Part shown: positions 13,050 to 53,592 of the stretch, one piece after another
Layout: every line of letters begins with the position of its first letter
How positions within the stretch are numbered: the stretch's first letter is position 1
DNA from: Myxococcaceae bacterium
Lineage (GTDB): Bacteria; Myxococcota_A; Polyangia; Polyangiales; Ga0077539
Reading direction: 5' to 3'
NCBI GenBank assembly: GCA_004297725.1
Contig: SCUS01000160.1
Span: forward strand, 5,615 to 69,614
DNA length: 64,000 nucleotides
Translations under genes and position numbers: made by a program
The notes under the pieces: model-generated
Told to the model about the DNA's origin: nothing
The model's database searches: none
The model's input: only the letters and a program-made list of their open reading frames with translations

Positions 13050-14264
13050 CTATGACGTTCCTCTGTAACCGCTGCCCGACGCGCGCAGGTAGGCCAGCGC
13101 CCCGGCGTGCCCGGGGTCGATGCGCAGCACCTCCTCGGTCGCCCTCAGCGCCGCCGCCTCGTCGCGCAGCACCGCGCGGTGGATGCTCACCACGTGCTCG
13201 ATGGTGCGCACCTTCTCCGCCGCGCTCGTGACCAGCGCCGCGCGCCGCCAGCACGCCGCCACCGCCTCGGCCCAGCGCCCCGCCTGCTCGTGCGCCGTGA
13301 TCTCCCGCTCCACCGAGGCCAGCTCCGTCGCGCCCTGCGCCGTGGCCGCTGCCCGCCGCGCCCGGCCGCCGAAGACCGTCGCGCCCGAGCGCCCCTCGGG
13401 CACGTGGATCTGCGGCGTCTGCTTGACCCCCAGCCTCGCCATCAGGGCCCTGGTGCGGGCGTGCAGCTCCTCCCAGGTGAGGTCGTCCTTCGTGCGGCGC
13501 AGCACGTCGAGCATCGCGTGGCTGAAGGCCCCCTCGTAGATGCCCCCGAAGCTCGCGTCGGAGGAGGTCTCGTCGTCCGAGCACGCCCCCAGCGACACCG
13601 CGGGGAAGGCGTCGTGGAGCAGCGCCCCCATCGCCCCGTGCTCGGCCCCGGCGGGGGGCTTCTTCTTCTTCCGGGTCGAGGCCTTCGCGGGCCTCTTGCG
13701 CGCGGCCTTCGTGCCCCGCGTCACGTCGTAGCGCTCGGGCAGCGGAACATACCGCGGGCCCAGCAGCTCGACGCCCTCCGCGAGCCCTCGCGGCGCCGAG
13801 CGGGTGCGATAGGCCGCCGAGGCGGTGTCCTGCATGGTTCCAGCGTGGCAGGTGTCCCAGATCGCGGCGAGGCGCACCCCCTGGGGGACCTTCGCCAGCG
13901 CGCGGGCCAGCTCGTCGTCGGAGAGCACCCCGCGCTCCCAGTCGTGGTCGTGGGCGACCAGCACCTCGTCGTAGCCGTCCTCGTCGTCGCCGTCCTGGTC
14001 GGGGACGTGCGAGCCGTGCGTCGACGCGAAGAGCACCAGCTCGTCGCCAGGGCGCGAGCCCTCCAGCAGCGCGCCGATGGACGAGAGCAGCGCCGCCCGG
14101 GTGGCCTGCTCGTCGGCCAGCACCAGCACGTTGCGAGGATCGAAGCCGAAGTCCCGCATCAGCATCAGCGACAGCGTGCGGGCGTCGTTGACCGCCCCCT
14201 TGAGCGGCGGCAGCTCGCGGTCGGTGAAGCGGTTGATGCCCACGCAGAGAGCGCGCTTCGTCAT
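13050..14264 (-). CDS. Caspase-family (peptidase C14) protein with a helical/TPR-like C-terminal region
   Basis: MTKRALCVGINRF...LKGAVNDA. Catalytic His (FASTHGSH) and Cys (IWDTCHAG) motifs are present. The C-terminal ~90 aa look helical-repeat-like. Confidence 0.85.
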   Translation of the reverse strand: MTKRALCVGINRFTDRELPPLKGAVNDARTLSLMLMRDFGFDPRNVLVLADEQATRAALLSSIGALLEGSRPGDELVLFASTHGSHVPDQDGDDEDGYDEVLVAHDHDWERGVLSDDELARALAKVPQGVRLAAIWDTCHAGTMQDTASAAYRTRSAPRGLAEGVELLGPRYVPLPERYDVTRGTKAARKRPAKASTRKKKKPPAGAEHGAMGALLHDAFPAVSLGACSDDETSSDASFGGIYEGAFSHAMLDVLRRTKDDLTWEELHARTRALMARLGVKQTPQIHVPEGRSGATVFGGRARRAAATAQGATELASVEREITAHEQAGRWAEAVAACWRRAALVTSAAEKVRTIEHVVSIHRAVLRDEAAALRATEEVLRIDPGHAGALAYLRASGSGYRGTS

Positions 14265-19072: not shown

Positions 19073-19101
19073 AGGCCGATCCGCGCAGTAACGGATTGCC
19101 C

Positions 19102-21744
19102 ATGATCCGCCGCGCCGCCCTCCCCCTGCTCATCGCCGCTGCCGCTGCCTGCTCGTCGGACCCGGCGCCCGGCGCTCCTCCCTCCGACGCGGAGACCCCC
19201 GCCGACGTCGTCGTCGCCATCGACCTGGGAAGCCCGGTCGATGTGCCCACGGTCGATGTGCCCACGGTCGATGTGCCCACGGTCGATGTGCCCACGGTCG
19301 ATGTGCCCACGGTCGATGTGCCCGCGGTCGATGTGCCCGCGGACCGTGGCGCTCCGGTCGATGTCGGGGTCGATGCCGGGGCGCGCGATGCGGGCTTCGA
19401 CGTGGTGGATGTCCTGGTGGTGGTCGATGTCGCGACGGACGTGGGCCGTGACGCGGGCGCTCCCGACACCGGTCCGGTCGACGCCGGGACCCCCGACGCG
19501 GGCTGCGTCTCTCCCCGTCGCCTCTGCGGCGAGGTGTGCACCGACACCGCGAGCGACAGCGCCCACTGCGGCGGCTGCGGGGTGCGCTGCGCCGGGGTGT
19601 GCAGCCGCGGAGCCTGCACCCAGGTGGCCCAGGTGGCGGCGGGAACGGACTTCACCTGCGCCCGGCTGGTCGACGGCGCGGCGCGCTGCTGGGGCAACAA
19701 CGAGAACGGGCAGCTCGGCGACGGAACCGGCGGGACGCGCACCGGGCGCTGGCGGCCGACGCCGGTGATCGGCCTCGCCAACGCCGTGCAGATCGTGGCG
19801 GGCAACACCCACGCATGCGCCCGCCTGGCCGACGGGACGGCGCAGTGCTGGGGGCGCAACAGCAGCGGGCAGCTCGGCGGCGGGACGGCCGGGGGCCTCG
19901 GGCTGACGCCTCGCGCGGTCGTCGGCCTCGTCGGCGTTGCAGAACTCTCCCTGGGGGAGAACTTCACCTGCGCCCGGCTCAACGACGGGACGGTGCGCTG
20001 CTGGGGCAACAACCTCAGCGGGCAGATGGGCCTCGGGACGCAGACCGGCTCGGTGCTCACTCCGACGATGGTCCCGGGCTTGAGCGGGGTGGTGTCGATC
20101 TCGTCGGGGGTGGCTCACACCTGCGCGGTGCTCTCCGACGGGACGGCGCGCTGCTGGGGGATGAACTTCCAGGGCCAGAGCGGCGCGGGCGCCGGGGTGG
20201 ATCGGGCGCTGTCTCCCGTGATGGTCCAGGGGCTGAGCGGCGCCGTGGGGATCTCCCTCGGCAGCTTCCACTCCTGCGCATGGCGCTCCGACGGGACCGC
20301 TCGCTGCTGGGGGGACAACAGCGGCTACGACCTTGGCGACGGCACCAGCGCCCGCCGCGACGCGGCCGTGGCCGTGCTGGGCCTCGACCGGGTGGCGAAC
20401 CTCACCTCGGGCGCCTCGTTCACGTGCGCGCGGCGAACCGACGGCGCCGTGCTCTGCTGGGGCACCAACGCCCTCGGGCAGATGGGAGACGGAACCCTCG
20501 GCGGCGCCCAGATGACCCCGACGGTGGTTCCAGGGCTCGGGGCGGTGACGGAGGTCACGGCGCGAGGCAACCACGCCTGCGCCCGACGGATGGACGCGAG
20601 CGTCCGCTGCTGGGGAAGCGACGCGGCGGGAGAGCTTGGCGACGACGCGGGCCTCTCGGGCCACCGCACCCCGGAGACGGCGCTGGGCGTGCGGGCCGGC
20701 GCGGTGCAGGTCGCGGCGGGCGGAGAGCACACCTGCGCCCGCTTCGCAGACGGATCGGCGCAGTGCTGGGGCAGCGGCAACACCGGCGAGCTCGGCGACG
20801 GCGTCACGGCGAGGTCGCGGCACGTGCCCGTCGCGGTGAGCGGGCTCACGGGCGCCGCGGCGCTCGCGGCGGGGAGCTTCGGCACCTGCGCGAGGATGAC
20901 CGACGGGACGGTGCGCTGCTGGGGATACAACAGCGACGGACAGATCGGAGACGGCACCGAAGGGGGCACCCGCGCGACGCCGACGGTGGCGCTCGGGCTG
21001 AGCGGGGTGACCGACCTCGGGCTTGGGCAGACCTTCGCGTGCGCCCTCTCGGGAGGGAGCGTGCGGTGCTGGGGGAGCAACAACAACGGGAGGCTGGGGA
21101 TCAACTCCGCGGGGATGTACGGGATCCCCCGGGCGAGCAGCCCGGTGGTGGGGCTGAGCGGCGCGGCGGGGGTGGGCCTTGGGTTGTTTCACGCGTGCGC
21201 GTGGACCAGCGCGGGCGCGGCGCGGTGCTGGGGAGCCAACGACGACGGACAGCTCGGCGACGGCACCACCACGGCGCGCTGGGTGTCCACGGCGGTTCCG
21301 GGGACGGGCACCGTGACCGCCCTGGTCGGCGGCTACAGCCACACCTGCGCCCTGCGCTCCGACGGGACGGTGGCCTGCTGGGGCCGCAACTCCGCCGGGC
21401 AGGTGGGGGACGGCACCACCACGAGCCCACGCCCCGCGGCGATCGCGGTGGCCGGGCTGACGGGCGTGGCGCAGCTTGCGGCCGGGGAGTTTCACACCTG
21501 CGCCCGGAGGACGGACGGCACGGTGCGCTGCTGGGGCAACAACGACTACGGGCAGTGCGGCGACGACTCGCAGGGGGGCTCGCGGCCCTCGCCGGTGACG
21601 GTGCGCGAGCTCACGGGCGTGGCGGAGATCGCCGCGGGCGCCAACCACACCTGCGCTCGGATGATGGACGGGACGCTGCGCTGCTGGGGCAGCGACCGGA
21701 CGGGTCAGCTGGCGCTCGGAGCGCTCCGAACGCCGCGCTGGTGA
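19102..21744 (+). CDS. Secreted lipoprotein with a VDVPT linker, one Stig1-like Cys module and 14 RCC1 repeats
   Basis: ATG 19102 (MIRRAALPLLIAAAAAC). The track start at 19096 is TTG. Fourteen copies of ...H.CA...DG...CWG.N..GQLG.G. fit two 7-bladed RCC1 propellers. Confidence 0.85.
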   Translation: MIRRAALPLLIAAAAACSSDPAPGAPPSDAETPADVVVAIDLGSPVDVPTVDVPTVDVPTVDVPTVDVPTVDVPAVDVPADRGAPVDVGVDAGARDAGFDVVDVLVVVDVATDVGRDAGAPDTGPVDAGTPDAGCVSPRRLCGEVCTDTASDSAHCGGCGVRCAGVCSRGACTQVAQVAAGTDFTCARLVDGAARCWGNNENGQLGDGTGGTRTGRWRPTPVIGLANAVQIVAGNTHACARLADGTAQCWGRNSSGQLGGGTAGGLGLTPRAVVGLVGVAELSLGENFTCARLNDGTVRCWGNNLSGQMGLGTQTGSVLTPTMVPGLSGVVSISSGVAHTCAVLSDGTARCWGMNFQGQSGAGAGVDRALSPVMVQGLSGAVGISLGSFHSCAWRSDGTARCWGDNSGYDLGDGTSARRDAAVAVLGLDRVANLTSGASFTCARRTDGAVLCWGTNALGQMGDGTLGGAQMTPTVVPGLGAVTEVTARGNHACARRMDASVRCWGSDAAGELGDDAGLSGHRTPETALGVRAGAVQVAAGGEHTCARFADGSAQCWGSGNTGELGDGVTARSRHVPVAVSGLTGAAALAAGSFGTCARMTDGTVRCWGYNSDGQIGDGTEGGTRATPTVALGLSGVTDLGLGQTFACALSGGSVRCWGSNNNGRLGINSAGMYGIPRASSPVVGLSGAAGVGLGLFHACAWTSAGAARCWGANDDGQLGDGTTTARWVSTAVPGTGTVTALVGGYSHTCALRSDGTVACWGRNSAGQVGDGTTTSPRPAAIAVAGLTGVAQLAAGEFHTCARRTDGTVRCWGNNDYGQCGDDSQGGSRPSPVTVRELTGVAEIAAGANHTCARMMDGTLRCWGSDRTGQLALGALRTPRW
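19237..19341. repeat. 15-bp tandem repeat (7 units) encoding VDVPT
   Basis: GTCGATGTGCCCRCG x7, in frame in the RCC1 lipoprotein gene. Confidence 0.95.
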
Positions 21745-21757
21745 GCGGGGGGAGCGA

Positions 21758-23005
21758 TCAGAAGCAGATGCTGCCCGAGCAGCGCAGCCCGAGGTTGCAG
21801 GTGTTGCCCGCGCAGCAGGGCTGGAGGCGGCTGCCGCAGCGCACGCTGGTGCCGCAGCGGTTGGTGGACGAGCAGGAGAGGCCGACGTTGCAGGTGCTTC
21901 CGCCGCAGCAGACCTCGCCCGACGCCCCGCACGACGAGCAGGTGCCGCTGGCGCAGGCGAGGCCGACGTTGCAGGTGCTTCCGGCGCAGCAGGGCTGACC
22001 GCTGGTGCCGCAGGCGACGCACGACCCGCCGCTGCAGGTGAGCGTCGCGCCGTTGCAGGTGCTCCCGCCGCAGCAGGTCTGACCCGCGTCTCCGCAGGTG
22101 GACACCTGGCAGGTGTTGCTGCGGCAGGCGAGGCCCGAGGAGCAGGTCGACCCGGCGCAGCAGGTCTGGCCGGGGCCGCCGCAGGCCTGGCAGGCGTTGG
22201 TGAGCAGGGAGCACTGGAAGCCGGCGCCGCAGAGGCGCCCGGGGCAGCAGGTCTGGCCGGGGCCGCCGCAGGCCGTGCAGGTGGAGCCGTTGCAGGTGGA
22301 GCCCGCCGCGCAGGTGCTTCCGCAGCAGGGCTGGCCGGGAGCGCCGCAGGCCTGGCAGAAGCCGTCACGGCCGCAGAGCAGCGAAGCGCCGCAGGCGGGG
22401 GTCGTGCGCTGGCAGCAGCGCTGGCCCGCGCCGCCGCAGGCCTGGCAGGTGTTCACGCCCCCGAAGAGGCCCGAGCACTCGGCGCCGGCCTCGCAGGTGC
22501 GAAGGCCGCAGCAGGGCTGGCCGGGGGCGCCGCAGGTGGTCCCGGTGTCGCGGCGGCCGGTGTCGACCGGGACGTCCATCGCCGCGCCCGTGTCGACGCG
22601 GGGAAGGTCCATCGGCGAGACCACGTCGAGGCTGGGAGCGTCCACCGGGGTCACCGGGACATCGATGGGCGACGGGGCATCCATGGGCGCGCCGGTGTCG
22701 GGCGTCGCGGGGACGTCGGGGGTAACCCCGAGGTCGACGGGAGCGCCGACATCGACCGGGACATCGCTCCCCACGGGGACGTCCGCCGGGCTGACCGGGA
22801 CATCGACCGCAGGCACGTCCGTCGGGCTGACCGGAACATCCGTCGCCGGGGCATCCTCCTCCCCGGAGCCGGTGTCCTCGACGGACCCGACGTCGTCCTC
22901 GAAGAAGCCCGCGTCGGGGTCGACCACGGGAGCATCACCGTCGCTACAGCCCACCGACAGCACGGCCGCGAGAGCGACCCACTTCACCCAACGATTGCTG
23001 ACCAT
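21758..23005 (-). CDS. Lipoprotein with a D/P/V-rich linker and about 9 CG..GQ.CC Cys-rich repeats
   Basis: ATG complement 23003-23005 (MVSNRWVKWVALAAVLSVGC) in frame with ORF 21758..23956. Repeats fit ACG.PGQ.CC.GS.C..G..C....C. Confidence 0.75.
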   Translation of the reverse strand: MVSNRWVKWVALAAVLSVGCSDGDAPVVDPDAGFFEDDVGSVEDTGSGEEDAPATDVPVSPTDVPAVDVPVSPADVPVGSDVPVDVGAPVDLGVTPDVPATPDTGAPMDAPSPIDVPVTPVDAPSLDVVSPMDLPRVDTGAAMDVPVDTGRRDTGTTCGAPGQPCCGLRTCEAGAECSGLFGGVNTCQACGGAGQRCCQRTTPACGASLLCGRDGFCQACGAPGQPCCGSTCAAGSTCNGSTCTACGGPGQTCCPGRLCGAGFQCSLLTNACQACGGPGQTCCAGSTCSSGLACRSNTCQVSTCGDAGQTCCGGSTCNGATLTCSGGSCVACGTSGQPCCAGSTCNVGLACASGTCSSCGASGEVCCGGSTCNVGLSCSSTNRCGTSVRCGSRLQPCCAGNTCNLGLRCSGSICF

Positions 23006-24187: not shown

Positions 24188-25831
24188 TCACTTGAGCGGC
24201 AGGCCGAAGGCGAGGTGGAAGGGGATGCCCGCGAGGTCGGCCCGGGCGCTCACGGAGAGCACCACGCTGCGCTGCTCGCCCTGGGTCACCACCTGGGCCT
24301 CCAGCCGCGCCGCCTCCTGCGCCGTCGGGAAGAGGAACACCGCCGCCGCCTGCTCGAAGAGAAGCTTCACCTCGGGCTCCTCGGCGCCCGGAGGGAGCTG
24401 CGCCAGCACCCAGCGGGCGAAGCGCACCACGCGCCCGGTGAGCACCTGCGCCGAGAGCGGCACCACGTCGTCGCCCTTCCTCGCCGTCGGCATCGACGAC
24501 AGGATGATCGCGTCGCTGTTGCGGCCGCTGCCGAGGCCGATGATCCCGAGCTCGGCCAGCCGGCTCTGGGCCCTGATGGAGTAGAAGGTCTCCGTCGGCA
24601 CCAGGTTGCCCGCGTCGCGACCGCTGGGCAGCTCGTACGAGCCGGCGGCCTTGAGGGCCCCCTGCGGCCCGACGATGCGCGCGAAGGCGCCGCTCTTGTG
24701 GTAGCTCGCCGAGAGCATCGCCCCCAGCGCCGCCACGGGGGATCCGAACACCACGCGACGCGCCGCGCCCGTGCCCTCGGTGCGAAGCACCGGGCGGTTG
24801 CTCACCACCGCGAGCCAGCGAGAGGCCTCGTCGGCGCGGAGCTCCTTCCATGCCGAGGGGAGCGAGCCGTCGTCGTCCTCGATGCGGGCCGAGACCGCGT
24901 GCGGGTCCTTCTGGCCGAAGAGGGCGGAGGTCACGCCCGCCACCACGGGGATGTCGTTGTCCGCGCCGAGGTTGGCCAGCTCCTGCAAGCGAGCGGGGTC
25001 ATCGACCGCGTCGAACACGAAGATCGCGTCCGGCGCCTCGTCCTCGGGCACCTCCGGGAGCGCCGCCCGGATCGCGTCGAGCGTCCCGGCGGCGTCCACG
25101 TCCAGCACCTCGACGCCGATGCCCGCGTTCTCGGGGCACTGGTCTACCAGCAGCTTGAGTCCTCGCCACGCCGACTCCAGCGCCGACACCTCGGGCGAGC
25201 GCAGGATGTCCACCGCGGTGCCGAACACCTCGGCCTCGATCACGTCCCTCGCGCCCCGCCCCGCGGCGGGCTGCGTCGCCGTCGTCGAGGGCCCTCGCAT
25301 CGCCTTGAGGAAGCTGCTCACCGCGGTGCCCGCGGAAGGCGGCGCCACCGGGGTGCTGTCCGCCGAGAGCAGCGAGTCGAGCGTGGTCGACGCGGGCGCC
25401 GCCGCCGGGGCGGGCGCCGCCGCCGGGGCGGGCGGGGTCACGTTGAGCTTCGTCTTGAGCGCCGCGGCCAGCTTGCCGTCGCCCACCAGCTCGATGACCC
25501 TCGCCACCGCCGTCACCGGGTCGGGGCGCTTCGTCGCGTCGGTCTGCGCCAGCGAGGCGCCCAGCGCGGAGAGCCCCGCCAGGGCGGGGACCGAGGCGAT
25601 CACGTCGCTGGCCTGGAAGGCCTTGAGCGAGCCGAAGGCCACCGGGTAGGAGCGCTTCGCCCCGTCGCCGAGGCGGTCGGGCACCGTCGCGTCGACCTTC
25701 AGCGCGGTCGCCTCGAGGGTGGGCGCGAAGCTGTTGGGGGACACCGTGAAGCGCCGCCCGGAGGGCTTCGCGGTGAACGCGCCCGCCACGAGCCAACGCA
25801 CCCGCACGCCCGTCTTGTCGTCTGTGCTCAT
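24188..25831 (-). CDS. TssB-TssC (VipA-VipB)-like contractile sheath fusion protein
   Basis: ATG 25829-25831 with GGAG 8 nt upstream. The N-terminal ~120 aa fit the TssB pattern (VAGAFTA..RRF.V.PNSF...L......V.DRL......V.F.SLKAF.ASDV...VPAL..L). A P/A-rich linker follows. Then TssC-like blocks appear (ALESAWRGLKLLVDQ, AIFVFDAV, IPVVAGV..ALFG). Confidence 0.65.
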   Translation of the reverse strand: MSTDDKTGVRVRWLVAGAFTAKPSGRRFTVSPNSFAPTLEATALKVDATVPDRLGDGAKRSYPVAFGSLKAFQASDVIASVPALAGLSALGASLAQTDATKRPDPVTAVARVIELVGDGKLAAALKTKLNVTPPAPAAAPAPAAAPASTTLDSLLSADSTPVAPPSAGTAVSSFLKAMRGPSTTATQPAAGRGARDVIEAEVFGTAVDILRSPEVSALESAWRGLKLLVDQCPENAGIGVEVLDVDAAGTLDAIRAALPEVPEDEAPDAIFVFDAVDDPARLQELANLGADNDIPVVAGVTSALFGQKDPHAVSARIEDDDGSLPSAWKELRADEASRWLAVVSNRPVLRTEGTGAARRVVFGSPVAALGAMLSASYHKSGAFARIVGPQGALKAAGSYELPSGRDAGNLVPTETFYSIRAQSRLAELGIIGLGSGRNSDAIILSSMPTARKGDDVVPLSAQVLTGRVVRFARWVLAQLPPGAEEPEVKLLFEQAAAVFLFPTAQEAARLEAQVVTQGEQRSVVLSVSARADLAGIPFHLAFGLPLK

Positions 25832-25898
25832 CACCGTCACTCCAAACCTATGAGAGGGGGATCAGGAAGAGGTCTGCGAAGGGGGGATAGAGAGAGTC

Positions 25899-26966
25899 TC
25901 AGAGGCCCGCGCCGATGAGGTCCATGTCCGCCTCGTCGTCGGCGTCGGGGGCGTCGTTGCTCGCGTCGCCGAGGCCGCCGTCGCGTACGATGCCGGTGCG
26001 CGCGTCGACGCGGAGCACGCGGTTCCAGAGGGAGGGGTCGCTCGCCACGAAGGCGTTGTTGATCACGTAGATCGCCCGGTCGGCCGCCGCGCGGCGGAAG
26101 ATGCGCGCCGGCACCTGCGGCCTCGCGCGGTCGCGGTCGGAGACGATCACCTGCTCGCTCACCTGCACCCCCTCGGCGCGGTACTGGAGCGAGGTCTGCA
26201 GCTCGAAGGTGCGCTCCCAGCCCGTCTCCGCGACGACCACGGAGTACTCCTTCTTGTATTCGAAGCGCGCCGGCCCGAGGCAGCGACCGCTCGCGGTGCG
26301 CAGCGGCTCGGCCACGAAGCGGTCACCCTGGAGCATCATCAGCCGCGCCTGGCGGCGGCAGGTGAGCGGGTTGTTCTCGTCGGCGCAGACCTCTCCCTCG
26401 CCGATGAGCACCCGGCGCGCGCCGATGGACTCGAGCCTGAGCCTGGGGCGCCGGGGGAAGGTGCGGAGCGTGCCGATGGCGCGCACCCCGACGCGGTCGC
26501 CGGTGAACTCTGCGAGGGCCACCGGGCCGACGGCCTCGCCGTTGTCGAAGCGGTCGACGATGACCCACACCAGCCGGAGGCTGGGGGAGAGGCGCTGGAC
26601 GACCACGTCGTCTTCGGTGAGCGGGCGCTGCGGCACCGGGGCGCTCGGCTCGGCGGACTCGCGGCAGCGGATGGTGGGCTCGCGCCACGCGACCGGCTGG
26701 TCGGTGCAGTCGCGCACGTTGCCCTGCGCCATGCCGGGGGTGTAGCCGCGGATGAGCAGCCGGGCCCAGGCGTCGGCGCGCAGCGTGGGCACGGCGCCGG
26801 CGACCGAGGGGGGCGCCGCCACGGCGCACACCATCGGCACGGGCAGCGGAGCGGCGGGCGGCGGGCGGTTGCTCGAACACGCGGACGCGACGACCGCGCC
26901 GGCGAGGCCCAGCGCGGCGCAGAGCCCGAACCAACGAACAACCCCGTGGGTGGAGAGCACTCTCAT
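25899..26966 (-). CDS. Hypothetical lipoprotein
   Basis: MRVLSTHGVVRWFGLCAALGLAGAVVASAC signal/lipobox. GC3-rich 355-aa ORF between the sheath-like and FHA genes. No recognisable family. Confidence 0.6.
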   Translation of the reverse strand: MRVLSTHGVVRWFGLCAALGLAGAVVASACSSNRPPPAAPLPVPMVCAVAAPPSVAGAVPTLRADAWARLLIRGYTPGMAQGNVRDCTDQPVAWREPTIRCRESAEPSAPVPQRPLTEDDVVVQRLSPSLRLVWVIVDRFDNGEAVGPVALAEFTGDRVGVRAIGTLRTFPRRPRLRLESIGARRVLIGEGEVCADENNPLTCRRQARLMMLQGDRFVAEPLRTASGRCLGPARFEYKKEYSVVVAETGWERTFELQTSLQYRAEGVQVSEQVIVSDRDRARPQVPARIFRRAAADRAIYVINNAFVASDPSLWNRVLRVDARTGIVRDGGLGDASNDAPDADDEADMDLIGAGL

Positions 26967-27016
26967 GGGAACGACAACCCCTGCGCGCCAGAAGACAGAA
27001 GAGCTTCAGGGCCGGA

Positions 27017-28390
27017 TCAATGACCCCGGCCGGATGGTACACGCCTCGGATCGTTGTCAGCGAAGTTTTCTCCGAGCGCGGCGGAGTACGCCCGGGCGAA
27101 GTCGCGGCCGAAGATGGCGGAGGTGATCTCCTTGTCCTCGGTGAGCTCGTCGTGGAGGGCCAGGTAGCGCTTCCACGCCGCGGCGGCCTTGAAGGGGCCG
27201 AAGCTGAAGGCCCCGGCCTCGCCGTCGACGTGGCGCATGATCCCAGCGGGAGAGAGCCGCACCTGGAGCAGCTTGCGGACGCCCTCCATCACGGCGCCCA
27301 GGAGGGCGACCTGGTGGGTCATGATCTCGGCGTACTGACCGCGGAGCTGCTGCATCCGGGCGTCGCCGTCGCCGGTCCAGTCGAGGAGGTACTCGAGCAC
27401 GGGGCGAGGGTCCTGCGCGTCTTCGATGGGCGTCGGGTCGGCGCTGCGGCGCTGCGAGCCGACCATCTCGGTGCCGAACTCCTCCTGGCTGCGACGCAGG
27501 CTCACGTACGCGGTGCCGAAGGTCTCCAGCGCCGCGAGCGCCCTCACCAGGAAGCCCTCCATCTCCTGCGGCGACTGCGGCGCGGGCCGAGACGGGACGA
27601 GGTACTGCGCGAGCTGCTGCACCAGCTGACCGGCGGCCCCGCCGGAGCCGTCCTGATCGCCCGGGAGGGGCACGTTCTGCGACTGGGCGAGGGCCTTGAA
27701 CTGCGGCTCGGAGGCGACCTCGGGGAAGCTCTCGGCGAAGAGGGTGATCGCCGCCGGCACCTGCGCCGCGGGGACCTGCGAGAGGGCGTTGACGAGGCCC
27801 TGCTGGAGTTCTTGCCAGGCGCGGCGGTGCGCGGCGTAGAGGGGGCGCAGCGCGAGGATCTGGTTGCGCGCCGGGCCCATCATCGTGGGCCGGGCGGTCT
27901 GCGCCGCGGCGTGGCTGGCCATGATCGACGCGGTGTCGATCATCATGGTCGAGGAGACGTCGTTCTCGATGGAGGGGTGGCCCGAGGCGACCCTGGACTG
28001 GGTGCTCTTGAGGAGCCCCGCGGAGACCACGGTGGAGTCGGCGTTGGTCGAGGCCGACTGGGTGATCATCTGCTCGGGCACGTTGGCGAGCTGGAAGGTC
28101 AGCCTCAACGCCCCGATGCGGAACTCGTACTCGGGCCCCGGGATGCCCACCGGCTGGTTGGGCGCGAGGCGCTGCCCCCCGACGGTGGTGCCGTTGGTGG
28201 AGCCGAGGTCGTAGTAGGCCGCGTTGCTCTGGTCGAAGGCCACCACCGCGTGCCACTGCGACACGAAGGGGAAGGGCAGCGGCAGGTCGTTGAGGGCGTT
28301 GCGACCGATGCGCACCGGCGTCTTGGCGAACGCGAACGAGCGGGATGAGTTGTCCTGGAAATTATCGACGCGGACGAGCAGGGCCAACAT
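27017..28390 (-). CDS. FHA domain protein with a TagH-type (T6SS-associated) C-terminal domain
   Basis: ATG complement 28388-28390 (MLALLVRVDN...) in frame with ORF 27017..28831. FHA core: RIGRN..NDL.L....VSQWHA.V......YYDLGSTNGT.V. C-terminus: HQVALLGAVMEG...KAAAAWKRYLALHDEL...IFGRDFARAYSAAL, like the TagH/Fha C-domain. Confidence 0.75.
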   Translation of the reverse strand: MLALLVRVDNFQDNSSRSFAFAKTPVRIGRNALNDLPLPFPFVSQWHAVVAFDQSNAAYYDLGSTNGTTVGGQRLAPNQPVGIPGPEYEFRIGALRLTFQLANVPEQMITQSASTNADSTVVSAGLLKSTQSRVASGHPSIENDVSSTMMIDTASIMASHAAAQTARPTMMGPARNQILALRPLYAAHRRAWQELQQGLVNALSQVPAAQVPAAITLFAESFPEVASEPQFKALAQSQNVPLPGDQDGSGGAAGQLVQQLAQYLVPSRPAPQSPQEMEGFLVRALAALETFGTAYVSLRRSQEEFGTEMVGSQRRSADPTPIEDAQDPRPVLEYLLDWTGDGDARMQQLRGQYAEIMTHQVALLGAVMEGVRKLLQVRLSPAGIMRHVDGEAGAFSFGPFKAAAAWKRYLALHDELTEDKEITSAIFGRDFARAYSAALGENFADNDPRRVPSGRGH

Positions 28391-47797: not shown

Positions 47798-49054
47798 ATG
47801 AGCTGCTCCCCCCGATGGATCGCGGGCCTCGCCGCGGCGCTCGCCCTGGGCGTCGGCTGCCGCGACGCCGCGGCGCCGATCGCCCCCGACGACGTGGTCT
47901 TCGTCACCGACGCCCCCGCCGCCGTGGACGCCCGGGCGACGACGGACGCCGCCGTCGAGGGGGACGCCCCCGTCGACCTCGATGCGGCCTCCCCCTCCGA
48001 CGACGCCGCCGTCGCCGACGATGTCGCCGCCACCGACGCGGCGCGGCCCGTCGACGCCCGCTCCGACGCGGGGCGCTCCTGCGTGTGCCCGACGCTGCCG
48101 GCGACGTGCTCGCCGCCCGCGCTCGACGTGCCCTCGTTCACCACCGGAGGGGCGCTGCTGGGGCAGCTCATGGGGCTGATCTCCTGCGCCGACACGAGCC
48201 TCCACGCCGCCCTCTACGAGACGCTCTGGACCTGCCTGCCCGACGCCATCCTCGCCCGCCTCGCGGCCGCCCCGGCGCTCACCGTGCAGCTCGTCTACGA
48301 CGACGAGACCTGCCCCCGCGTGGGGGGGACGCTGATGTGCCCGCTGGCCCGCCTCGACGGCCACCCCCGGGTGAGCCTGCTGCCCGACGCGCGCAGCGCG
48401 CTGATGCACCACAAGTTCTTCGTCGTCGACGGCGAGCGCGTCTGGGTCGGGTCGGCCAACGGCAGCGAGCAGTCGTACTGCCGCGACGCCAACGACGCCG
48501 TCGTGCTCGGCGAGCCGGCGATCGTCGGGGCCTTCGAGGGGGAGTTCCAGCGGATGTTTCGCGACCACGCCTTCGGGCCGATCGTGGCGTCGTCGCCGGT
48601 GAGCGCGGGGCGCTACGCGGCGTACTTCAGCCCCCGCTCGCCCACGTCGAGCCCGGCGCGGTGGTTCACGGACATGGTCGGGGCCATCGCCGAGGCGCGC
48701 ACCTCGGTGGACTTCGTGATCTCCGCCTGGACGCGCACCGAGCTCTCCGACGCGATGATCGCCGCGAGGATGCGGGGCGTGGCGGTGCGGGGCATCGTCG
48801 CGCACGAGTACCTCAACGACGCGCCCGCGATGGCGCTGCTCGCCGCGGGGGTGCCGGTGCGCGCGGGCAACGTGCACAGCAAGCTGCTCATCCTCGACGG
48901 GCAGACGGTGATCACCGGCTCGGCCAACTGGTCGGCCGCGGCGTGGGCCAACAACGAGAACAGCCTGTGGATCCGCGACGCCTCGGCGGCGGCGGCCTAC
49001 GGGGAGTACTTCACCCGGCAGTACGGGGCGGCGACGGCCCCGGCGGGGATGTGA
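47798..49054 (+). CDS. Phospholipase D-family (two HKD motifs) lipoprotein
   Basis: LAAALALGVGC lipobox and a D/A/P-rich linker. HKD motifs are HHKFFVVDGERVWVGSANGS and HSKLLILDGQTVITGSANWS. Confidence 0.85.
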   Translation: MSCSPRWIAGLAAALALGVGCRDAAAPIAPDDVVFVTDAPAAVDARATTDAAVEGDAPVDLDAASPSDDAAVADDVAATDAARPVDARSDAGRSCVCPTLPATCSPPALDVPSFTTGGALLGQLMGLISCADTSLHAALYETLWTCLPDAILARLAAAPALTVQLVYDDETCPRVGGTLMCPLARLDGHPRVSLLPDARSALMHHKFFVVDGERVWVGSANGSEQSYCRDANDAVVLGEPAIVGAFEGEFQRMFRDHAFGPIVASSPVSAGRYAAYFSPRSPTSSPARWFTDMVGAIAEARTSVDFVISAWTRTELSDAMIAARMRGVAVRGIVAHEYLNDAPAMALLAAGVPVRAGNVHSKLLILDGQTVITGSANWSAAAWANNENSLWIRDASAAAAYGEYFTRQYGAATAPAGM

Positions 49055-50054: not shown

Positions 50055-51449
<1,395 letters not shown>

Positions 51450-51468
51450 AAGGGCCCGGGCCCCCCTC

Positions 51469-52194
51469 ATGGTGCGCCGCCTTCGTGAAAGCCTCATCGG
51501 CCTCGCCGCGATCGCCTCGGTCGGGTGCTCCATCGCGCTCGATTTCAGCAGGTCCAACCTGCCGGCCTCGCGCGACGGCGGCGCCCCGCTGGACGTGCCC
51601 CCGCTCACCGATCTCCCCTCGGACACCTCCGAGGTGATCGACGCGCCGACGCCGCCCGACGCGAGCGACGTCCCCGTCGGCATGGACGGCCCCGATGCCT
51701 CGGACGCCCCCGACGCCTCGGACGCCCCCGACGCCTCGGACGCCCCCGATGCCTCGGATGCGACGGATGCGACCGACGCCCCCGAAGCGATGGACGTGGA
51801 GGACGTCGTCGATGCGCCCGATGCGACCGACGCCCCCGAGGGGATGGACGCCTTCGACGCCCCCGACGTCTTCGACGCCCCCGACGCCTTCGACGCGCCC
51901 GACGTCTTCGACGCGCCCGACGTCTTCGACGCGCCCGACGTCCGCGACGCGGGGCCCTCGTGCGACGCCGACCTCACGCGCGACCCGCTGAACTGCGGCG
52001 CCTGCGGCCGGCGCTGCGCCACGACGCCGTGCATGGCGGGCGTCTGCACCTGGTGCCGCGCGCCTCTTTCGCTCTGCAGCGGCAACTGCTACGACCTCCT
52101 CACGTCTGCGCAGCACTGCGGCACGTGCACGACGCGCTGCAGCGGATCGACCCCCAACTGCTGCCAGGGCGCCTGCCGCGCCCGGTGTAACTGA
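51469..52194 (+). CDS. Lipoprotein with DAPDAS/DAPDVF repeats and a C-terminal Stig1-like Cys-rich module
   Basis: LAAIASVGC lipobox and a long acidic tandem repeat. The C-terminus reads DPLNCGACGRRC....C..GVC. Confidence 0.7.
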   Translation: MVRRLRESLIGLAAIASVGCSIALDFSRSNLPASRDGGAPLDVPPLTDLPSDTSEVIDAPTPPDASDVPVGMDGPDASDAPDASDAPDASDAPDASDATDATDAPEAMDVEDVVDAPDATDAPEGMDAFDAPDVFDAPDAFDAPDVFDAPDVFDAPDVRDAGPSCDADLTRDPLNCGACGRRCATTPCMAGVCTWCRAPLSLCSGNCYDLLTSAQHCGTCTTRCSGSTPNCCQGACRARCN

Positions 52195-52206
52195 GGAGGC
52201 GCCGGA

Positions 52207-53592
52207 GTGATCGACCCAGGCACGGAGATCGACGCGCGCTACCGGGTGATACGCCTCCTCGGGGAGGGCGGCATGGGCGCCGTCTACGAGGTCGAGCACC
52301 TCGGCGTCGGCAAGCGCCTCGCGATCAAGATGCTGCACGCCCACTACGCGCGGCAGCCCGAGGCGGTGAAGCGCTTCGCCCGAGAGGCGAGGGCCGCGGC
52401 GGCCATCGGGCACCCGAACATCGTCGAGGTGATCGACACCGGGGTGCACCGCTCCGAGCCGTACATGGTGATGGAGCTGCTGCGCGGGGAGACGCTCGCC
52501 GAGCGCCTCGCGAGGGCGACGGCGATCACCACGAGGGAGGTCTGCGGGGTGATCGGGAGCATCCTCTCGGCGCTCGCGTCGGCGCACGCCAAGGGCATCG
52601 TGCACCGCGACCTGAAGCCGGAGAACGTCTTCCTCGCGGAGTACGGCGGCACGACCACGGTGAAGCTGCTGGACTTCGGGGTGTCGAAGTTTCGCCACGA
52701 GGCCGGCACGCTCTTCGAGACCACGCAGGAGGGCCTGCCCGTGGGGACCCCGGCGTACATGGCCCCGGAGCAGTGGATGGGCCGGCGGGACATCGACCAC
52801 CGGGCCGACCTGTTCGCCGTGGGGGTGATGCTCTTCGAGATGCTCACCGGGGGCTTCCCCTACGAGGGGGCGAGCCAGGGGGAGCTGTTCCTGGAGATCG
52901 TGCGGGGGTCGGAGGCGCCGCCGCTGCCGAGCAGCATCGCCCCGGGGGTGCCGCGCGCCATCGACGTCGTGGTGCTGCGGGCCCTGCGCAGAGAGCGCGA
53001 GGAGCGCTTCCAGTCGGCGAGGGAATTCCTCGACGCGCTGCGGCCCTTCGGCGCCGAGCGCATCGCCGTCTGCGACGACCTCCCGGTGCAGGAGTCGCTC
53101 GACGCCAGCTCCACCTCGCCGCGGCGCGCGCTGCGCCGCACCGCCGCCACCCTCGATGGCGCCCGGGTCTCCGGCCGGCAGATCACGGTGCTGTCGCTGC
53201 TGCTCTCCTTCGTGGTGCTCGGGCTGGTGGTGGTCGCCGGCACCCGCGTCGGCTCGTCGTCCCGGGCGCCGCGCCCGGAGCCCGTCGTCGCCGCGGCCAT
53301 GACGGCCACCCTGCCCGCCGCACCCGCGCCGCCCGAGCCCGCGCCCCCTGCGCCCGCGCCCGCGCCCGCTGTTCTTGCGCCTGCGCCCGCGCCCGCGCCC
53401 GCCGCGGAGCAGGAGACCGCGCTCGCCGCGCTCCACCCCCGGCGCCACGGCCGCCGTCACCACCGATCGCACGCCCCATCGACCCGGGCGCCCTCCTTCG
53501 ACGCGGCCTCCTTCGGCGCCCCATCGCCTCGCGCGCCCTCGCCCCGCGCTCCGGCCGGCCGGGGGGCGCTCCACATCTCGCGAGAATTCTAG
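52207..53592 (+). CDS. Serine/threonine protein kinase (Hanks type), single-pass membrane
   Basis: GEGGMGAVYEV, AIKML, HRDLKPENVFL, DFGVSK, GTPAYMAPE. A TM helix follows the kinase domain, then a P/A-rich tail. GTG start. Confidence 0.92.
   Translation: MIDPGTEIDARYRVIRLLGEGGMGAVYEVEHLGVGKRLAIKMLHAHYARQPEAVKRFAREARAAAAIGHPNIVEVIDTGVHRSEPYMVMELLRGETLAERLARATAITTREVCGVIGSILSALASAHAKGIVHRDLKPENVFLAEYGGTTTVKLLDFGVSKFRHEAGTLFETTQEGLPVGTPAYMAPEQWMGRRDIDHRADLFAVGVMLFEMLTGGFPYEGASQGELFLEIVRGSEAPPLPSSIAPGVPRAIDVVVLRALRREREERFQSAREFLDALRPFGAERIAVCDDLPVQESLDASSTSPRRALRRTAATLDGARVSGRQITVLSLLLSFVVLGLVVVAGTRVGSSSRAPRPEPVVAAAMTATLPAAPAPPEPAPPAPAPAPAVLAPAPAPAPAAEQETALAALHPRRHGRRHHRSHAPSTRAPSFDAASFGAPSPRAPSPRAPAGRGALHISREF

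What the first reader, a model, noticed from the sequence alone, without database searches (positions are those of the whole stretch)
24188..28390. Orphan T6SS-derived trio: TssB-TssC fusion, lipoprotein and TagH-like FHA protein, with no other T6SS components in view
Three co-directional minus-strand genes form the trio.
- 27017..28390 encodes an N-terminal FHA domain plus a C-terminal region resembling the TagH/Fha1 C-domain (HQVALLGAV...W.RY..L...L....IFGRDFARAY).
- 25899..26966 encodes an uncharacterised lipoprotein.
- 24188..25831 encodes a single polypeptide. Its first ~120 aa look like TssB/VipA. After a P/A-rich linker, the remainder carries TssC/VipB blocks, including the LE..WRGL..LV motif.
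- TssB and TssC are normally separate proteins, and this TssC-like part is shorter than the canonical ~490 aa.
- No Hcp, VgrG, TssE/F/G/K, TssJ/L/M or ClpV gene lies within 20 kb on either side in this window.
The trio may be a displaced accessory of a canonical T6SS, or a repurposed minimal sheath module under FHA (phospho-Thr) control. A Hanks-type kinase lies 24 kb away.
Basis: partly seen in the sequence, partly recalled or inferred. Interest (0 to 1): 0.65.

Follow-up and report, generated by a model that had tools for sequence, protein, structure and literature searches.

The report
Displaced T6SS accessory trio, single-chain sheath paralogue
Three neighbouring genes in a myxobacterial genome (a phospho-threonine-binding regulator, a lipoprotein and a one-piece copy of the two-part sheath of the type VI secretion "spring gun") are a detached piece of that organism's scattered secretion-system gene set, and the one-piece sheath copy belongs to an undescribed family found across the Myxococcota alongside the normal sheath.

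Summary
Window 24188-28390 (minus strand) encodes three proteins:
- a TagH-like protein (FHA + T6SS_FHA_C);
- a Cys-rich lipoprotein with no known family or fold;
- a 547-aa single chain with a TssB-like N-terminus, a P/A linker and a TssC-like body. The AlphaFold model (pLDDT 90.7) matches VipB/TssC sheath chains at E about 1e-13.

No T6SS core gene lies in the 64 kb. The trio is still not an orphan system.
- In 12 related loci it forms the last three genes of tssE-F-G-clpV-tagH-lipoprotein-fusion. Some of these loci also show hcp in front.
- In Nannocystaceae the fusion sits between tssA and hcp, next to canonical tssB and tssC.
- The window's own species (about 96% nucleotide identity to assembly GCA_016704445.1) carries tssF-tssG-clpV on another contig.
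- Close relatives, and very probably that assembly too, carry tssJ-K-L-M-tagF-tssA plus a separate 165-aa tssB.

So the trio is a displaced accessory module of a fragmented canonical T6SS, and it is under purifying selection (dN/dS 0.13-0.36). The fusion is an extra sheath paralogue, not the main sheath. Its M. xanthus orthologue, MXAN_0113, appears in no searched paper. It lacks the N-terminal strand of TssB, which suggests a polymer-end subunit or a sheath mimic. That mechanism is inferred.

The parts
27017..28390 (-). TagH-like protein, 457 aa: N-terminal FHA domain, a low-complexity middle region, and the C-terminal domain typical of T6SS FHA proteins. First gene of the trio.
   Evidence: Pfam FHA 6e-11 and T6SS_FHA_C 7.2e-12. 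TIGR03354 TagH scores 83 bits, below its cut-off of 120. Orthologues follow clpV in T6SS operons.
28091..28351 (-). FHA domain (residues ~14-100) with the phospho-threonine-binding residues conserved (GR, SxxH, NG).
   Evidence: Pfam match at residues 26-81. Alignment to solved FHA domains.
27080..27433 (-). T6SS_FHA_C domain (residues 320-437).
   Evidence: PF20232, 45.9 bits against a cut-off of 23.7.
25899..26966 (-). Conserved lipoprotein, 355 aa, all-beta, with six conserved cysteines after the lipid-anchor Cys. Family and fold uncharacterised. Always paired with tagH.
   Evidence: No Pfam or NCBIfam hit. 333 cluster representatives at E<=1e-3. AF2 pLDDT 81.5, no PDB fold match at E<=1e-3. 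C30 invariant; C47, C87, C101, C194, C203 and C229 conserved.
26877..26966 (-). Signal peptide and lipobox (…VVASA-C30-SS).
   Evidence: Predicted helix 9-28 followed by invariant Cys30. Read directly from the sequence.
24188..25831 (-). Single-chain TssB-TssC sheath paralogue, 547 aa. Orthologue of M. xanthus MXAN_0113. Last gene of the trio.
25448..25831 (-). TssB-like part (residues 1-128). It corresponds to TssB residues ~33-125 and lacks the N-terminal ~30-residue strand ('arm') of TssB.
   Evidence: PDB profile search: fusion 13-97 aligns to TssB 33-125. The canonical TssB N-terminus from the same clade shows the extra 28 residues. Every family member starts ~10 residues before RVRWLVAG.
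25334..25447 (-). Pro/Ala-rich flexible linker (residues 129-166). It contains a short helix, LDSLLS (family consensus LVDELL), homologous to the N-terminal helix of TssC.
   Evidence: pLDDT 50-59. Alignment to TssC residues 10-30, 'SLLDEIL'. The motif is kept in 13 of 16 aligned family members.
24188..25333 (-). TssC-like body (residues 167-547), including the LESAWRGLKLLVDQ motif. The C-terminal alpha/beta domain ends in a conserved beta-strand (…PFHLAFGLPLK).
   Evidence: PF05943. hhalign to TssC 14-361. Foldseek aligns 420-470 columns of VipB/TssC. Secondary structure.

Best explanation
The trio is a detached segment of the organism's single canonical type VI secretion system (T6SS-i) gene set. 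It is not a stand-alone system.

**Ancestral arrangement.** Judging from sister lineages, the order was (hcp-)tssE-tssF-tssG-clpV-tagH-lipoprotein-fusion. In the window's clade a rearrangement separated the last three genes. They remain one co-directional unit under purifying selection.

**TagH-like protein.** It is the cytoplasmic phospho-threonine-binding scaffold or regulator known from T6SS threonine-phosphorylation pathways.

**Lipoprotein.** It is an envelope partner that always travels with tagH. It probably works on the periplasmic side of the same regulatory or anchoring step.

**Fusion.** It is an additional sheath-like subunit made as one chain, and it coexists with the normal TssB and TssC.
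- It keeps the conserved sheath core fold and a C-terminal strand.
- It lacks the N-terminal strand of TssB, one of the strands that stitch neighbouring sheath subunits together.
- It displays a copy of the TssC N-terminal helix in a flexible linker. In other T6SSs that helix is the ClpV docking site.

**Most likely mechanism (inferred, not shown).** The fusion joins or docks onto the TssBC sheath but cannot propagate the lattice in one direction. It would therefore act at a polymer end, as an initiating or terminating ring, or as a non-polymerising sheath mimic that modulates assembly or ClpV-driven recycling.
For: **Shown: identity of the parts.**

**Shown: linkage to T6SS clusters.**
- Among 60 judgeable loci from species-representative genomes: 12 have clpV..tagH-lipoprotein-fusion, and 8 have tssA-fusion(-hcp).
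- In the tssA-fusion loci whose upstream flank reaches far enough, canonical tssB and tssC lie just upstream of tssA.
- Pfam confirms hcp-tssE-tssF-tssG-clpV-tagH-lipoprotein-fusion in L057.
- L082 and L095 add a divergent tssJ-K-L-M(-tagF) arm.
- The tagH-lipoprotein pair also follows clpV without the fusion (L081).

**Shown or strongly supported: T6SS core genes in the same species.**
- The window is ~96% identical and collinear over 21.6 kb with JADJAE010000034 of GCA_016704445.1.
- That assembly has tssF-tssG-clpV on JADJAE010000003.
- A TssE protein (MBK6533638) lies in the same accession block as that assembly's fusion (MBK6531854) and TssF (MBK6528539).
- Every contig read that carries this exact TssE and extends far enough also shows tssJ-K-L-M-tagF-tssA and a separate 165-aa PF05591 tssB.
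- Those contigs match the window in tetranucleotide composition as closely as known same-species contigs do (r = 0.992-0.993).
- One comes from the same metagenome sample (3300047676) as a contig carrying a 95%-identical trio.

**Shown: the genes are functional.** dN/dS is 0.13-0.36 for all three within the displaced-trio clade.

**Shown: coexistence with the canonical sheath elsewhere.** M. xanthus has TssB/TssC as MXAN_4807/4808 (PMC4239648) plus the orthologue MXAN_0113.

**Shown: the missing TssB N-terminal arm.**
Against: - No experiment exists for any family member. No searched paper mentions MXAN_0113.
- In Myxococcaceae and Archangiaceae the fusion is solitary and far from the T6SS cluster (29 of 60 loci). 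This fits a T6SS-independent role equally well.
- tssC, hcp and vgrG of the window's species were not seen directly, because the flank limit stopped at tssB.
- Assigning the tssE/tssB locus to assembly GCA_016704445.1 rests on accession-number proximity and sequence composition, not on a fetched record.
- The end-subunit or mimic mechanism rests only on the missing arm and on a monomer model. No multimer modelling could be run.
- The ClpV-helix resemblance is a sequence alignment within a low-confidence region of the model.
Confidence: 0.62

Rival explanations
1. The trio, or at least the fusion, is a repurposed stand-alone module. In this reading the single-chain sheath protein forms its own polymer or scaffold under TagH/phospho-threonine control, independently of the canonical T6SS.
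For: - The fusion is solitary in 29 of 60 loci, including M. xanthus, where it lies between an aldehyde dehydrogenase and a GNAT gene.
- It is kept under purifying selection after separation from T6SS genes.
- A second, shorter paralogue in Archangiaceae sits in a different conserved neighbourhood with a histidine kinase, coiled-coil proteins and an IcmF-like protein.
Against: - The fusion is embedded in core T6SS operons in Sandaracinaceae, many Polyangiales-like MAGs and Nannocystaceae.
- No private tube, baseplate or spike gene accompanies the trio anywhere.
- The window's species retains T6SS core genes.
- tagH and the lipoprotein stay with clpV even where the fusion has moved.
Confidence: 0.15
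2. The fusion is simply the organism's main sheath, meaning relocated and fused tssB-tssC that replace the two-gene version.
For: - It has the sheath fold.
- Some clusters that carry the trio show no tssB or tssC within 10 kb (L082 and L095).
Against: - A separate 165-aa PF05591 tssB lies next to tssA in contigs of the window's clade.
- Nannocystaceae encode tssB, tssC and the fusion in one cluster.
- M. xanthus has MXAN_4807/4808 as well.
- The fusion scores 58.9 bits against the TssC equivalog cut-off of 271.5.
- It lacks the TssB N-terminal strand.
Confidence: 0.04
3. The genes are decaying remnants of a broken T6SS cluster and have no function.
For: The T6SS gene set of this species is fragmented over at least three loci. 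In the JADJAE01 assembly, clpV is called in three pieces.
Against: - The reading frames are intact.
- dN/dS is 0.13-0.36.
- The family is conserved across the phylum down to 35% identity, with invariant residues.
- The AF2 models are confident.
- clpV is intact in two other assemblies of the species, so the split is probably an assembly error.
Confidence: 0.03

Closest known systems
T6SS-i contractile sheath TssB/TssC (VipA/VipB; e.g. PDB 3J9G, 5URW M. xanthus)
   Same: - Same core fold. It is the best structural match, at E ~1e-13 over 420-470 columns.
- It carries the LE..WRGL motif, a TssB-like N-terminal beta region and a TssC-like body.
- It is encoded in or next to T6SS clusters in several myxobacterial families.
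   Different: - It is one polypeptide instead of two.
- TssB residues 1-~30 are missing, and a P/A linker joins the two parts.
- There are internal deletions relative to TssC (around residues 128-165 and 245-265).
- The C-terminal domain is not recognisable by sequence.
- It scores far below the TssC equivalog threshold.
- It is present in addition to canonical TssB and TssC.
Multiple sheath paralogues of extracellular contractile injection systems (Afp2/3/4, Pvc2/3/4; e.g. PDB 6RAO, 6RBN)
   Same: They appear as weaker structural matches, at E 1e-5 to 1e-4.
   Different: They belong to different systems and are not TssB/TssC-derived. No such paralogue has been described for T6SS-i, to my knowledge and in the literature searched. 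The positional role proposed here is conjecture.
TagH/Fha1 of the T6SS threonine-phosphorylation pathway (TIGR03354, PF20232)
   Same: It has an FHA domain with intact pThr-binding residues plus the T6SS_FHA_C domain. In relatives it is encoded in T6SS operons. A conserved Ser/Thr kinase lies beside the trio in Sandaracinaceae.
   Different: It scores below the TagH equivalog cut-off (83 against 120 bits). No kinase or phosphatase is adjacent in the window. Its phosphorylated partner is unknown.
TssA-associated sheath stabilisers TagA, TagB, TagJ (PMC7896307)
   Same: These are lineage-specific accessory proteins encoded next to tssA that tune sheath extension and stability. In Nannocystaceae the fusion occupies the slot directly after tssA.
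   Different: There is no sequence or fold relationship, since the fusion is itself sheath-like. The analogy is functional only and untested.
T6SS lipoproteins TssJ and TagQ
   Same: All are envelope lipoproteins encoded with T6SS genes.
   Different: The lipoprotein does not match PF12790 (TssJ), and the species has its own TssJ. At 355 aa it is twice the size of TssJ. It is all-beta with three putative disulfides, and its fold matches no PDB entry. Its relationship to TagQ could not be tested.

Membership tests
TssC / VipB sheath large subunit | Match to Pfam PF05943 (VipB N-terminal domain) above the gathering score | tested here: met
   64.9 bits against a cut-off of 27, covering residues 277-450. 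hhalign extends the match to TssC 14-361.
TssC / VipB sheath large subunit | NCBIfam equivalog TIGR03355 above its cut-off, i.e. the same function as canonical TssC | tested here: not met
   58.9 bits against a cut-off of 271.5.
TssC / VipB sheath large subunit | C-terminal gpW/gp25-like domain (PF18945 VipB_2) | tested here: inconclusive
   There is no sequence match. However, the AF2 model has a C-terminal two-helix plus beta-hairpin plus terminal-strand module, and Foldseek aligns nearly the full VipB length.
TssB / VipA sheath small subunit | Match to Pfam PF05591 above the gathering score | tested here: inconclusive
   The window protein scores 20.6 bits against a cut-off of 24. An orthologue, L057, scores 26.8 bits. 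The family profile hits solved TssB chains at E 9e-10. Foldseek TM to TssB chain 5urw_1A is 0.59.
TssB / VipA sheath small subunit | N-terminal beta-strand arm that links neighbouring protomers | tested here: not met
   The fusion starts at the equivalent of TssB residue ~33. Canonical TssB of the same clade has 28 extra N-terminal residues, SVAPKERVNIVYKP….
TssB / VipA sheath small subunit | Separate polypeptide of ~165 aa encoded immediately upstream of tssC | tested here: not met
   The reading frame is a single 547-aa ORF, and this holds in all ~90 full-length family members.
Contractile sheath, functional sense | Polymerises around an Hcp tube and contracts | not testable with these tools
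   Only monomer modelling was available. The test would need multimer prediction, cryo-ET or biochemistry.
TagH (T6SS-associated FHA protein) | FHA domain plus T6SS_FHA_C domain | tested here: met
   PF00498 at 43 bits and PF20232 at 45.9 bits, both above their cut-offs.
TagH (T6SS-associated FHA protein) | NCBIfam TIGR03354 above its cut-off | tested here: not met
   83 bits against a cut-off of 120.25, although the alignment spans the full length, 8-438.
TagH (T6SS-associated FHA protein) | Encoded within a T6SS cluster | tested here: met
   This is not so in the window. Orthologues, however, directly follow clpV in 12 loci, plus L081, L083, L095 and L100.
TssJ outer-membrane lipoprotein | Match to PF12790 (T6SS-SciN) | tested here: not met
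   Neither the window protein nor any of 41 diverse relatives matches. The species has a separate PF12790 TssJ.
Complete T6SS-i in the same organism | Core genes tssA-M, hcp, vgrG and clpV present in the genome | tested here: inconclusive
   - tssF, tssG and clpV are confirmed in the same assembly.
- tssE, J, K, L, M, A, B and tagF occur in contigs of the same clade. They are linked to the assembly by an identical TssE protein whose accession falls in the same block.
- tssC, hcp and vgrG were not seen.

The most novel reading that the evidence does not exclude
The single-chain TssB-TssC paralogue would be a dedicated polymer-end subunit of the myxobacterial T6SS sheath. It would form a ring that either nucleates the sheath on the baseplate or caps its distal end, and it would present a permanently exposed ClpV-docking helix. 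TagH and the paired lipoprotein would couple its recruitment to an envelope signal. This would be the first specialised second sheath subunit in a T6SS-i, analogous to the position-specific sheath paralogues of extracellular contractile injection systems.
Probability: 0.25. Interest if true: 0.75.

Novelty: new variant of a known kind. Interest (0 to 1): 0.55.

Why it matters
T6SS sheaths are thought to be built from one TssB-TssC heterodimer. How their ends are initiated, capped and handed to ClpV is still debated, and lineage-specific helpers (TssA forms, TagA, TagB, TagJ) are part of that debate.

This finding adds a conserved, phylum-wide second sheath-like protein. It is made as a single chain, lacks one lattice-forming strand, and is genetically linked to baseplate, clpV, tagH or tssA genes. 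That gives a concrete candidate for an end-specific or regulatory sheath component.

It can be tested directly in Myxococcus xanthus (MXAN_0113). That organism is genetically tractable, and its T6SS has already been imaged in situ by cryo-tomography.

The work also shows that isolated T6SS-like genes in fragmented or rearranged genomes should be checked against the rest of the genome before they are called orphan systems.

Tried and rejected
- **Promoter and terminator scans.** Sigma-70 and terminator scans around the trio gave nothing above the shuffle expectation. A sigma-54 promoter pattern gave 4 matches against 2.9 expected, none upstream of the trio.
- **Literature.** Searches for a TssB-TssC fusion, for sheath paralogues in Myxococcota and for MXAN_0113 found nothing relevant.
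- **Linking T6SS contigs to the window's organism.**
  - Shared metagenome samples failed for TssF contigs L084 and L085. It later succeeded for the tssE locus (sample 3300047676).
  - Tetranucleotide similarity alone was suggestive for L084 and L085 (0.975-0.979) but not decisive.
It was replaced by a cluster look-up.
- **Anchor for the metagenome scan.** Hcp was considered but is too divergent, so TssE was used instead.
- **Rejected: the PLD gene at 47798-49054 as a linked T6SS effector.** A PLD gene also lies near MXAN_0113's orthologue. But the window's PLD is 22 kb away, and no conserved linkage was seen.
- **Rejected: the kinase at 52207-53592 as the trio's PpkA.** The distance is large and there is no synteny with the kinase that flanks the trio in Sandaracinaceae.


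Full report
**1. What is in the window**

The window is about 73.7% G+C, typical of Myxococcota. Three co-directional minus-strand ORFs with coding-type GC3 (0.92-0.96) occupy 27017-28390, 25899-26966 and 24188-25831. The gaps between them are 50 and 67 nt. A convergent TPR gene ends 10 nt from the last stop codon. A divergent Hsp20 gene lies upstream.

Nothing else in the 64 kb is T6SS-related.
- Pfam scans of the neighbours give GH3, RCC1-repeat, TPR, Hsp20, Leu/Phe-tRNA-protein transferase, RND efflux, caspase-like, PLD, an FHA-sigma54 activator and DUF3604.
- tblastn with TssA/B/C/E/F/G/J/K/L/M, TagF, Hcp and ClpV found nothing. The queries included proteins from the same species.
- The only Ser/Thr kinase hit is at 52219-52836.

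**2. The fusion protein**

Sequence evidence:
- Pfam VipB (PF05943) matches at 8.4e-18, above its threshold. VipA (PF05591) matches at 4e-4, just below its threshold. The TssC equivalog TIGR03355 scores 58.9 bits against a cut-off of 271.5.
- A profile built from 94 family members hits solved TssC chains (E 1e-23) and TssB chains (E 9e-10). Fusion residues 13-97 align to TssB 33-125, and residues 141-261 and 277-451 align to TssC.
- Profile-profile comparison with canonical myxobacterial TssC gives probability 99.3%. Fusion 146-449 aligns to TssC 14-361, with internal deletions.

Structural evidence:
- The AlphaFold model is confident (pLDDT 90.7, pTM 0.87). The only low-confidence stretch is the P/A linker, residues ~130-180.
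- Its best PDB matches are all T6SS sheath large subunits (E 3.5e-13 to 7e-10, 380-470 columns, TM up to 0.65). These are followed by AFP, PVC, pyocin and phage sheaths. TssB chains match the N-terminal part.

- **Missing TssB arm.** The protein begins at the equivalent of TssB residue ~33. It therefore lacks the N-terminal strand that canonical TssB has in the same clade, MSREGSVAPKERVNIVYKPATGNAQEEV…. By established structural work on VipA/VipB, that strand is one of the strands stitching protomers into the sheath mesh. This last point comes from my knowledge of Kudryashev et al. 2015 and Wang et al. 2017 and was not re-tested here.
- **TssC-like helix in the linker.** The linker carries a conserved short helix (LDSLLS; family consensus LVDELL). 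It aligns with the N-terminal SLLDEIL helix of TssC. That helix is the ClpV N-domain docking site in V. cholerae. This is a lead, not a test.

**3. The other two proteins**

*TagH-like protein.* It has FHA and T6SS_FHA_C domains above Pfam thresholds. It also has a full-length but sub-threshold TagH match (83 against 120 bits). Its pThr-binding residues are intact.

*Lipoprotein.*
- It has no family assignment.
- It has an N-terminal helix followed by an invariant Cys30. Six further conserved cysteines suggest three disulfides and an extracytoplasmic location.
- Its family is sizeable: 333 representatives at 50% clustering.
- Its AF2 model is all-beta (pLDDT 81.5) and matches no PDB fold.

**4. 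Distribution and context**

The fusion family is widespread in Myxococcota and was seen essentially nowhere else. Exceptions are records labelled Comamonas or Nocardioides that look misassigned. The M. xanthus DK1622 orthologue is MXAN_0113, annotated as hypothetical or as a 'sheath domain-containing protein'. No paper in the searched library mentions it.

Contexts among 60 judgeable loci:

| Context | Loci |
|---|---|
| clpV..tagH-lipoprotein-fusion | 12 |
| trio, no clpV within 9 kb (includes all of the window's close relatives) | 8 |
| trio, upstream flank too short to judge | 3 |
| tssA-fusion(-hcp), Nannocystaceae-type | 8 |
| solitary | 29 |

Further details:
- Canonical tssB and tssC lie just upstream of tssA in those tssA-fusion loci whose upstream flank reaches far enough.
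- The solitary set covers Myxococcaceae and Archangiaceae and includes a second, shorter paralogue.
- Pfam confirms hcp-tssE-tssF-tssG-clpV-tagH-lipoprotein-fusion in L057, with a convergent Ser/Thr kinase after it.
- L082 and L095 add a divergent tssJ-K-L-M(-tagF) arm.
- The tagH-lipoprotein pair also follows clpV, or tssG, without the fusion (L081, L127, L136).

The three genes are therefore T6SS-cluster accessories. tagH and the lipoprotein form a fixed pair, and the fusion moves more freely.

**5. Is the window's organism T6SS-less?**

No.
- The window is ~96% identical and collinear with JADJAE010000034 of assembly GCA_016704445.1.
- A TssF cluster contains proteins whose accessions sit in the same blocks as the fusion proteins of three MAGs of this species. 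The pairs are MBK6528539/MBK6531854, MBP6829623/MBP6830034 and MBK7066484/MBK7066907.
- A look-up places that TssF in GCA_016704445.1 on contig JADJAE010000003. It sits in a tssF-tssG-clpV block with unrelated genes on both sides.
- A TssE-anchored metagenome scan found contigs whose composition matches the window as well as known same-species contigs do (r = 0.992-0.993, against 0.994 for L091).
- Their TssE is identical to MBK6533638 and MBP6830117.
- Every sufficiently long contig carrying that TssE shows tssJ-K-L-M-tagF-tssA and a separate 165-aa PF05591 tssB running off the fetched flank.
- One of these contigs comes from the same sample (3300047676) as a contig with a 95%-identical trio.

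The species therefore has a canonical T6SS gene set broken into at least three loci, and the trio is one fragment. tssC, hcp and vgrG were not reached.

**6. Selection**

Within the displaced-trio clade, dN/dS is 0.13-0.36 for all three genes. dS is probably underestimated because of extreme GC3 bias. The genes are maintained, not decaying.

**7. Mechanism**

*Shown:*
- The genes are T6SS-linked accessories.
- The fusion is a sheath-fold protein that coexists with canonical TssB/TssC.
- It lacks the TssB N-terminal arm.

*Inferred:*
- A subunit with the acceptor core but without one donor strand can join a TssBC lattice only as a terminal element, or can mimic a protomer without polymerising.
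- Its operon neighbours are baseplate genes, clpV and tagH, or else tssA and hcp. This fits a role in initiating, capping or recycling the sheath.
- Extracellular contractile injection systems give a precedent for position-specific sheath paralogues.
- TagH presumably links this role to Ser/Thr phosphorylation, and a conserved kinase flanks the trio in Sandaracinaceae.
- The disulfide-rich lipoprotein presumably supplies the envelope side of that link.

I put about 0.85 on 'displaced T6SS accessory module' and about 0.25-0.3 on the specific end-subunit model.

**8. Verdict**

The 'orphan' label reflects the limited 64-kb view.

The single-chain TssB-TssC paralogue family, together with the tagH-lipoprotein pairing, appears undescribed and is experimentally accessible. 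I class it as a new variant of a known kind, of moderate interest.

Noticed in passing
L067, L068, L071, L074, L075, L080 (e.g. L075:9968-11401): Archangium and Hyalangium carry a second, shorter paralogue of the sheath-like fusion (~470-480 aa, no P/A linker, ~35% identity). It sits in a different conserved neighbourhood: a beta-propeller protein, a HAMP histidine kinase, the paralogue, a 642-aa protein of unknown function, two apolipoprotein-like coiled-coil proteins, and a 1284-aa IcmF/TssM-like protein on the opposite strand.
   Followed up: partly
L091 (JADJAE010000003), L151-L158, window 24188-28390: The T6SS gene set of the window's species is split over at least three loci: tssB-tssA-tagF-tssM-L-K-J with a divergent tssE, then tssF-tssG-clpV, then tagH-lipoprotein-fusion. 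Each locus is flanked by unrelated genes. In assembly JADJAE01, clpV is called in three pieces, but it is intact in two other assemblies.
   Followed up: partly
L053, L054, L057, L058, L060, L063, L077 (e.g. L057:11796-13820, minus strand): In Sandaracinaceae-type loci a conserved Ser/Thr protein kinase (59-68% identity among loci) lies convergently just downstream of the fusion gene. It is a candidate PpkA-like partner for the TagH protein.
   Followed up: no
L127:5588-7707, L136:13153-15349: The TagH-like and lipoprotein-like pair (27-32% identity) directly follows tssE-tssF-tssG in more distant metagenomic T6SS clusters. These clusters have no clpV in between and no detectable fusion, so the pair is more widely distributed than the fusion.
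   Followed up: no
window 50055-53592: A small regulatory cluster on the plus strand: an FHA-domain sigma-54 enhancer-binding protein (50055-51449), a 241-aa ORF, and a Hanks-type Ser/Thr kinase (52207-53592). It lies about 24 kb from the trio, with no demonstrated link.
   Followed up: no
window 21758-22900 (minus strand): A predicted secreted or lipoprotein-like protein with an acidic, Pro/Val/Asp-rich N-terminal region. This is followed by about ten tandem Cys-rich repeats of the type C-G-x-x-G-Q-x-C-C-x-G-x-x-C. It has no Pfam match.
   Followed up: no
window 13050-14264 and 19096-21744: A caspase-family (Peptidase_C14) protein and an 882-aa protein with 11 RCC1 repeats lie upstream of the trio region. 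These are eukaryote-like domain families typical of myxobacteria.
   Followed up: no
L086:1026-4718: Two tssF genes lie in tandem (584 and 603 aa) between tssE and tssG in an activated-sludge metagenome contig.
   Followed up: no
L056 (BNCN01000009, 'Comamonas sp. KCTC 72670'), L073 (JBAOHF010000011, 'Nocardioides sp.' MAG): Records labelled as non-myxobacterial carry clearly myxobacterial-type fusion genes (43-46% identity, ~70% G+C). The likely causes are misassigned strain names or binning contamination.
   Followed up: no
L091:18457-18849, L092:11879-12271: A DUF4280 (PAAR-like) gene lies about 3-5 kb downstream of the tssF-tssG-clpV block in the window's species. A ~1000-aa ORF with no Pfam match lies further on and may be an effector.
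   Followed up: no
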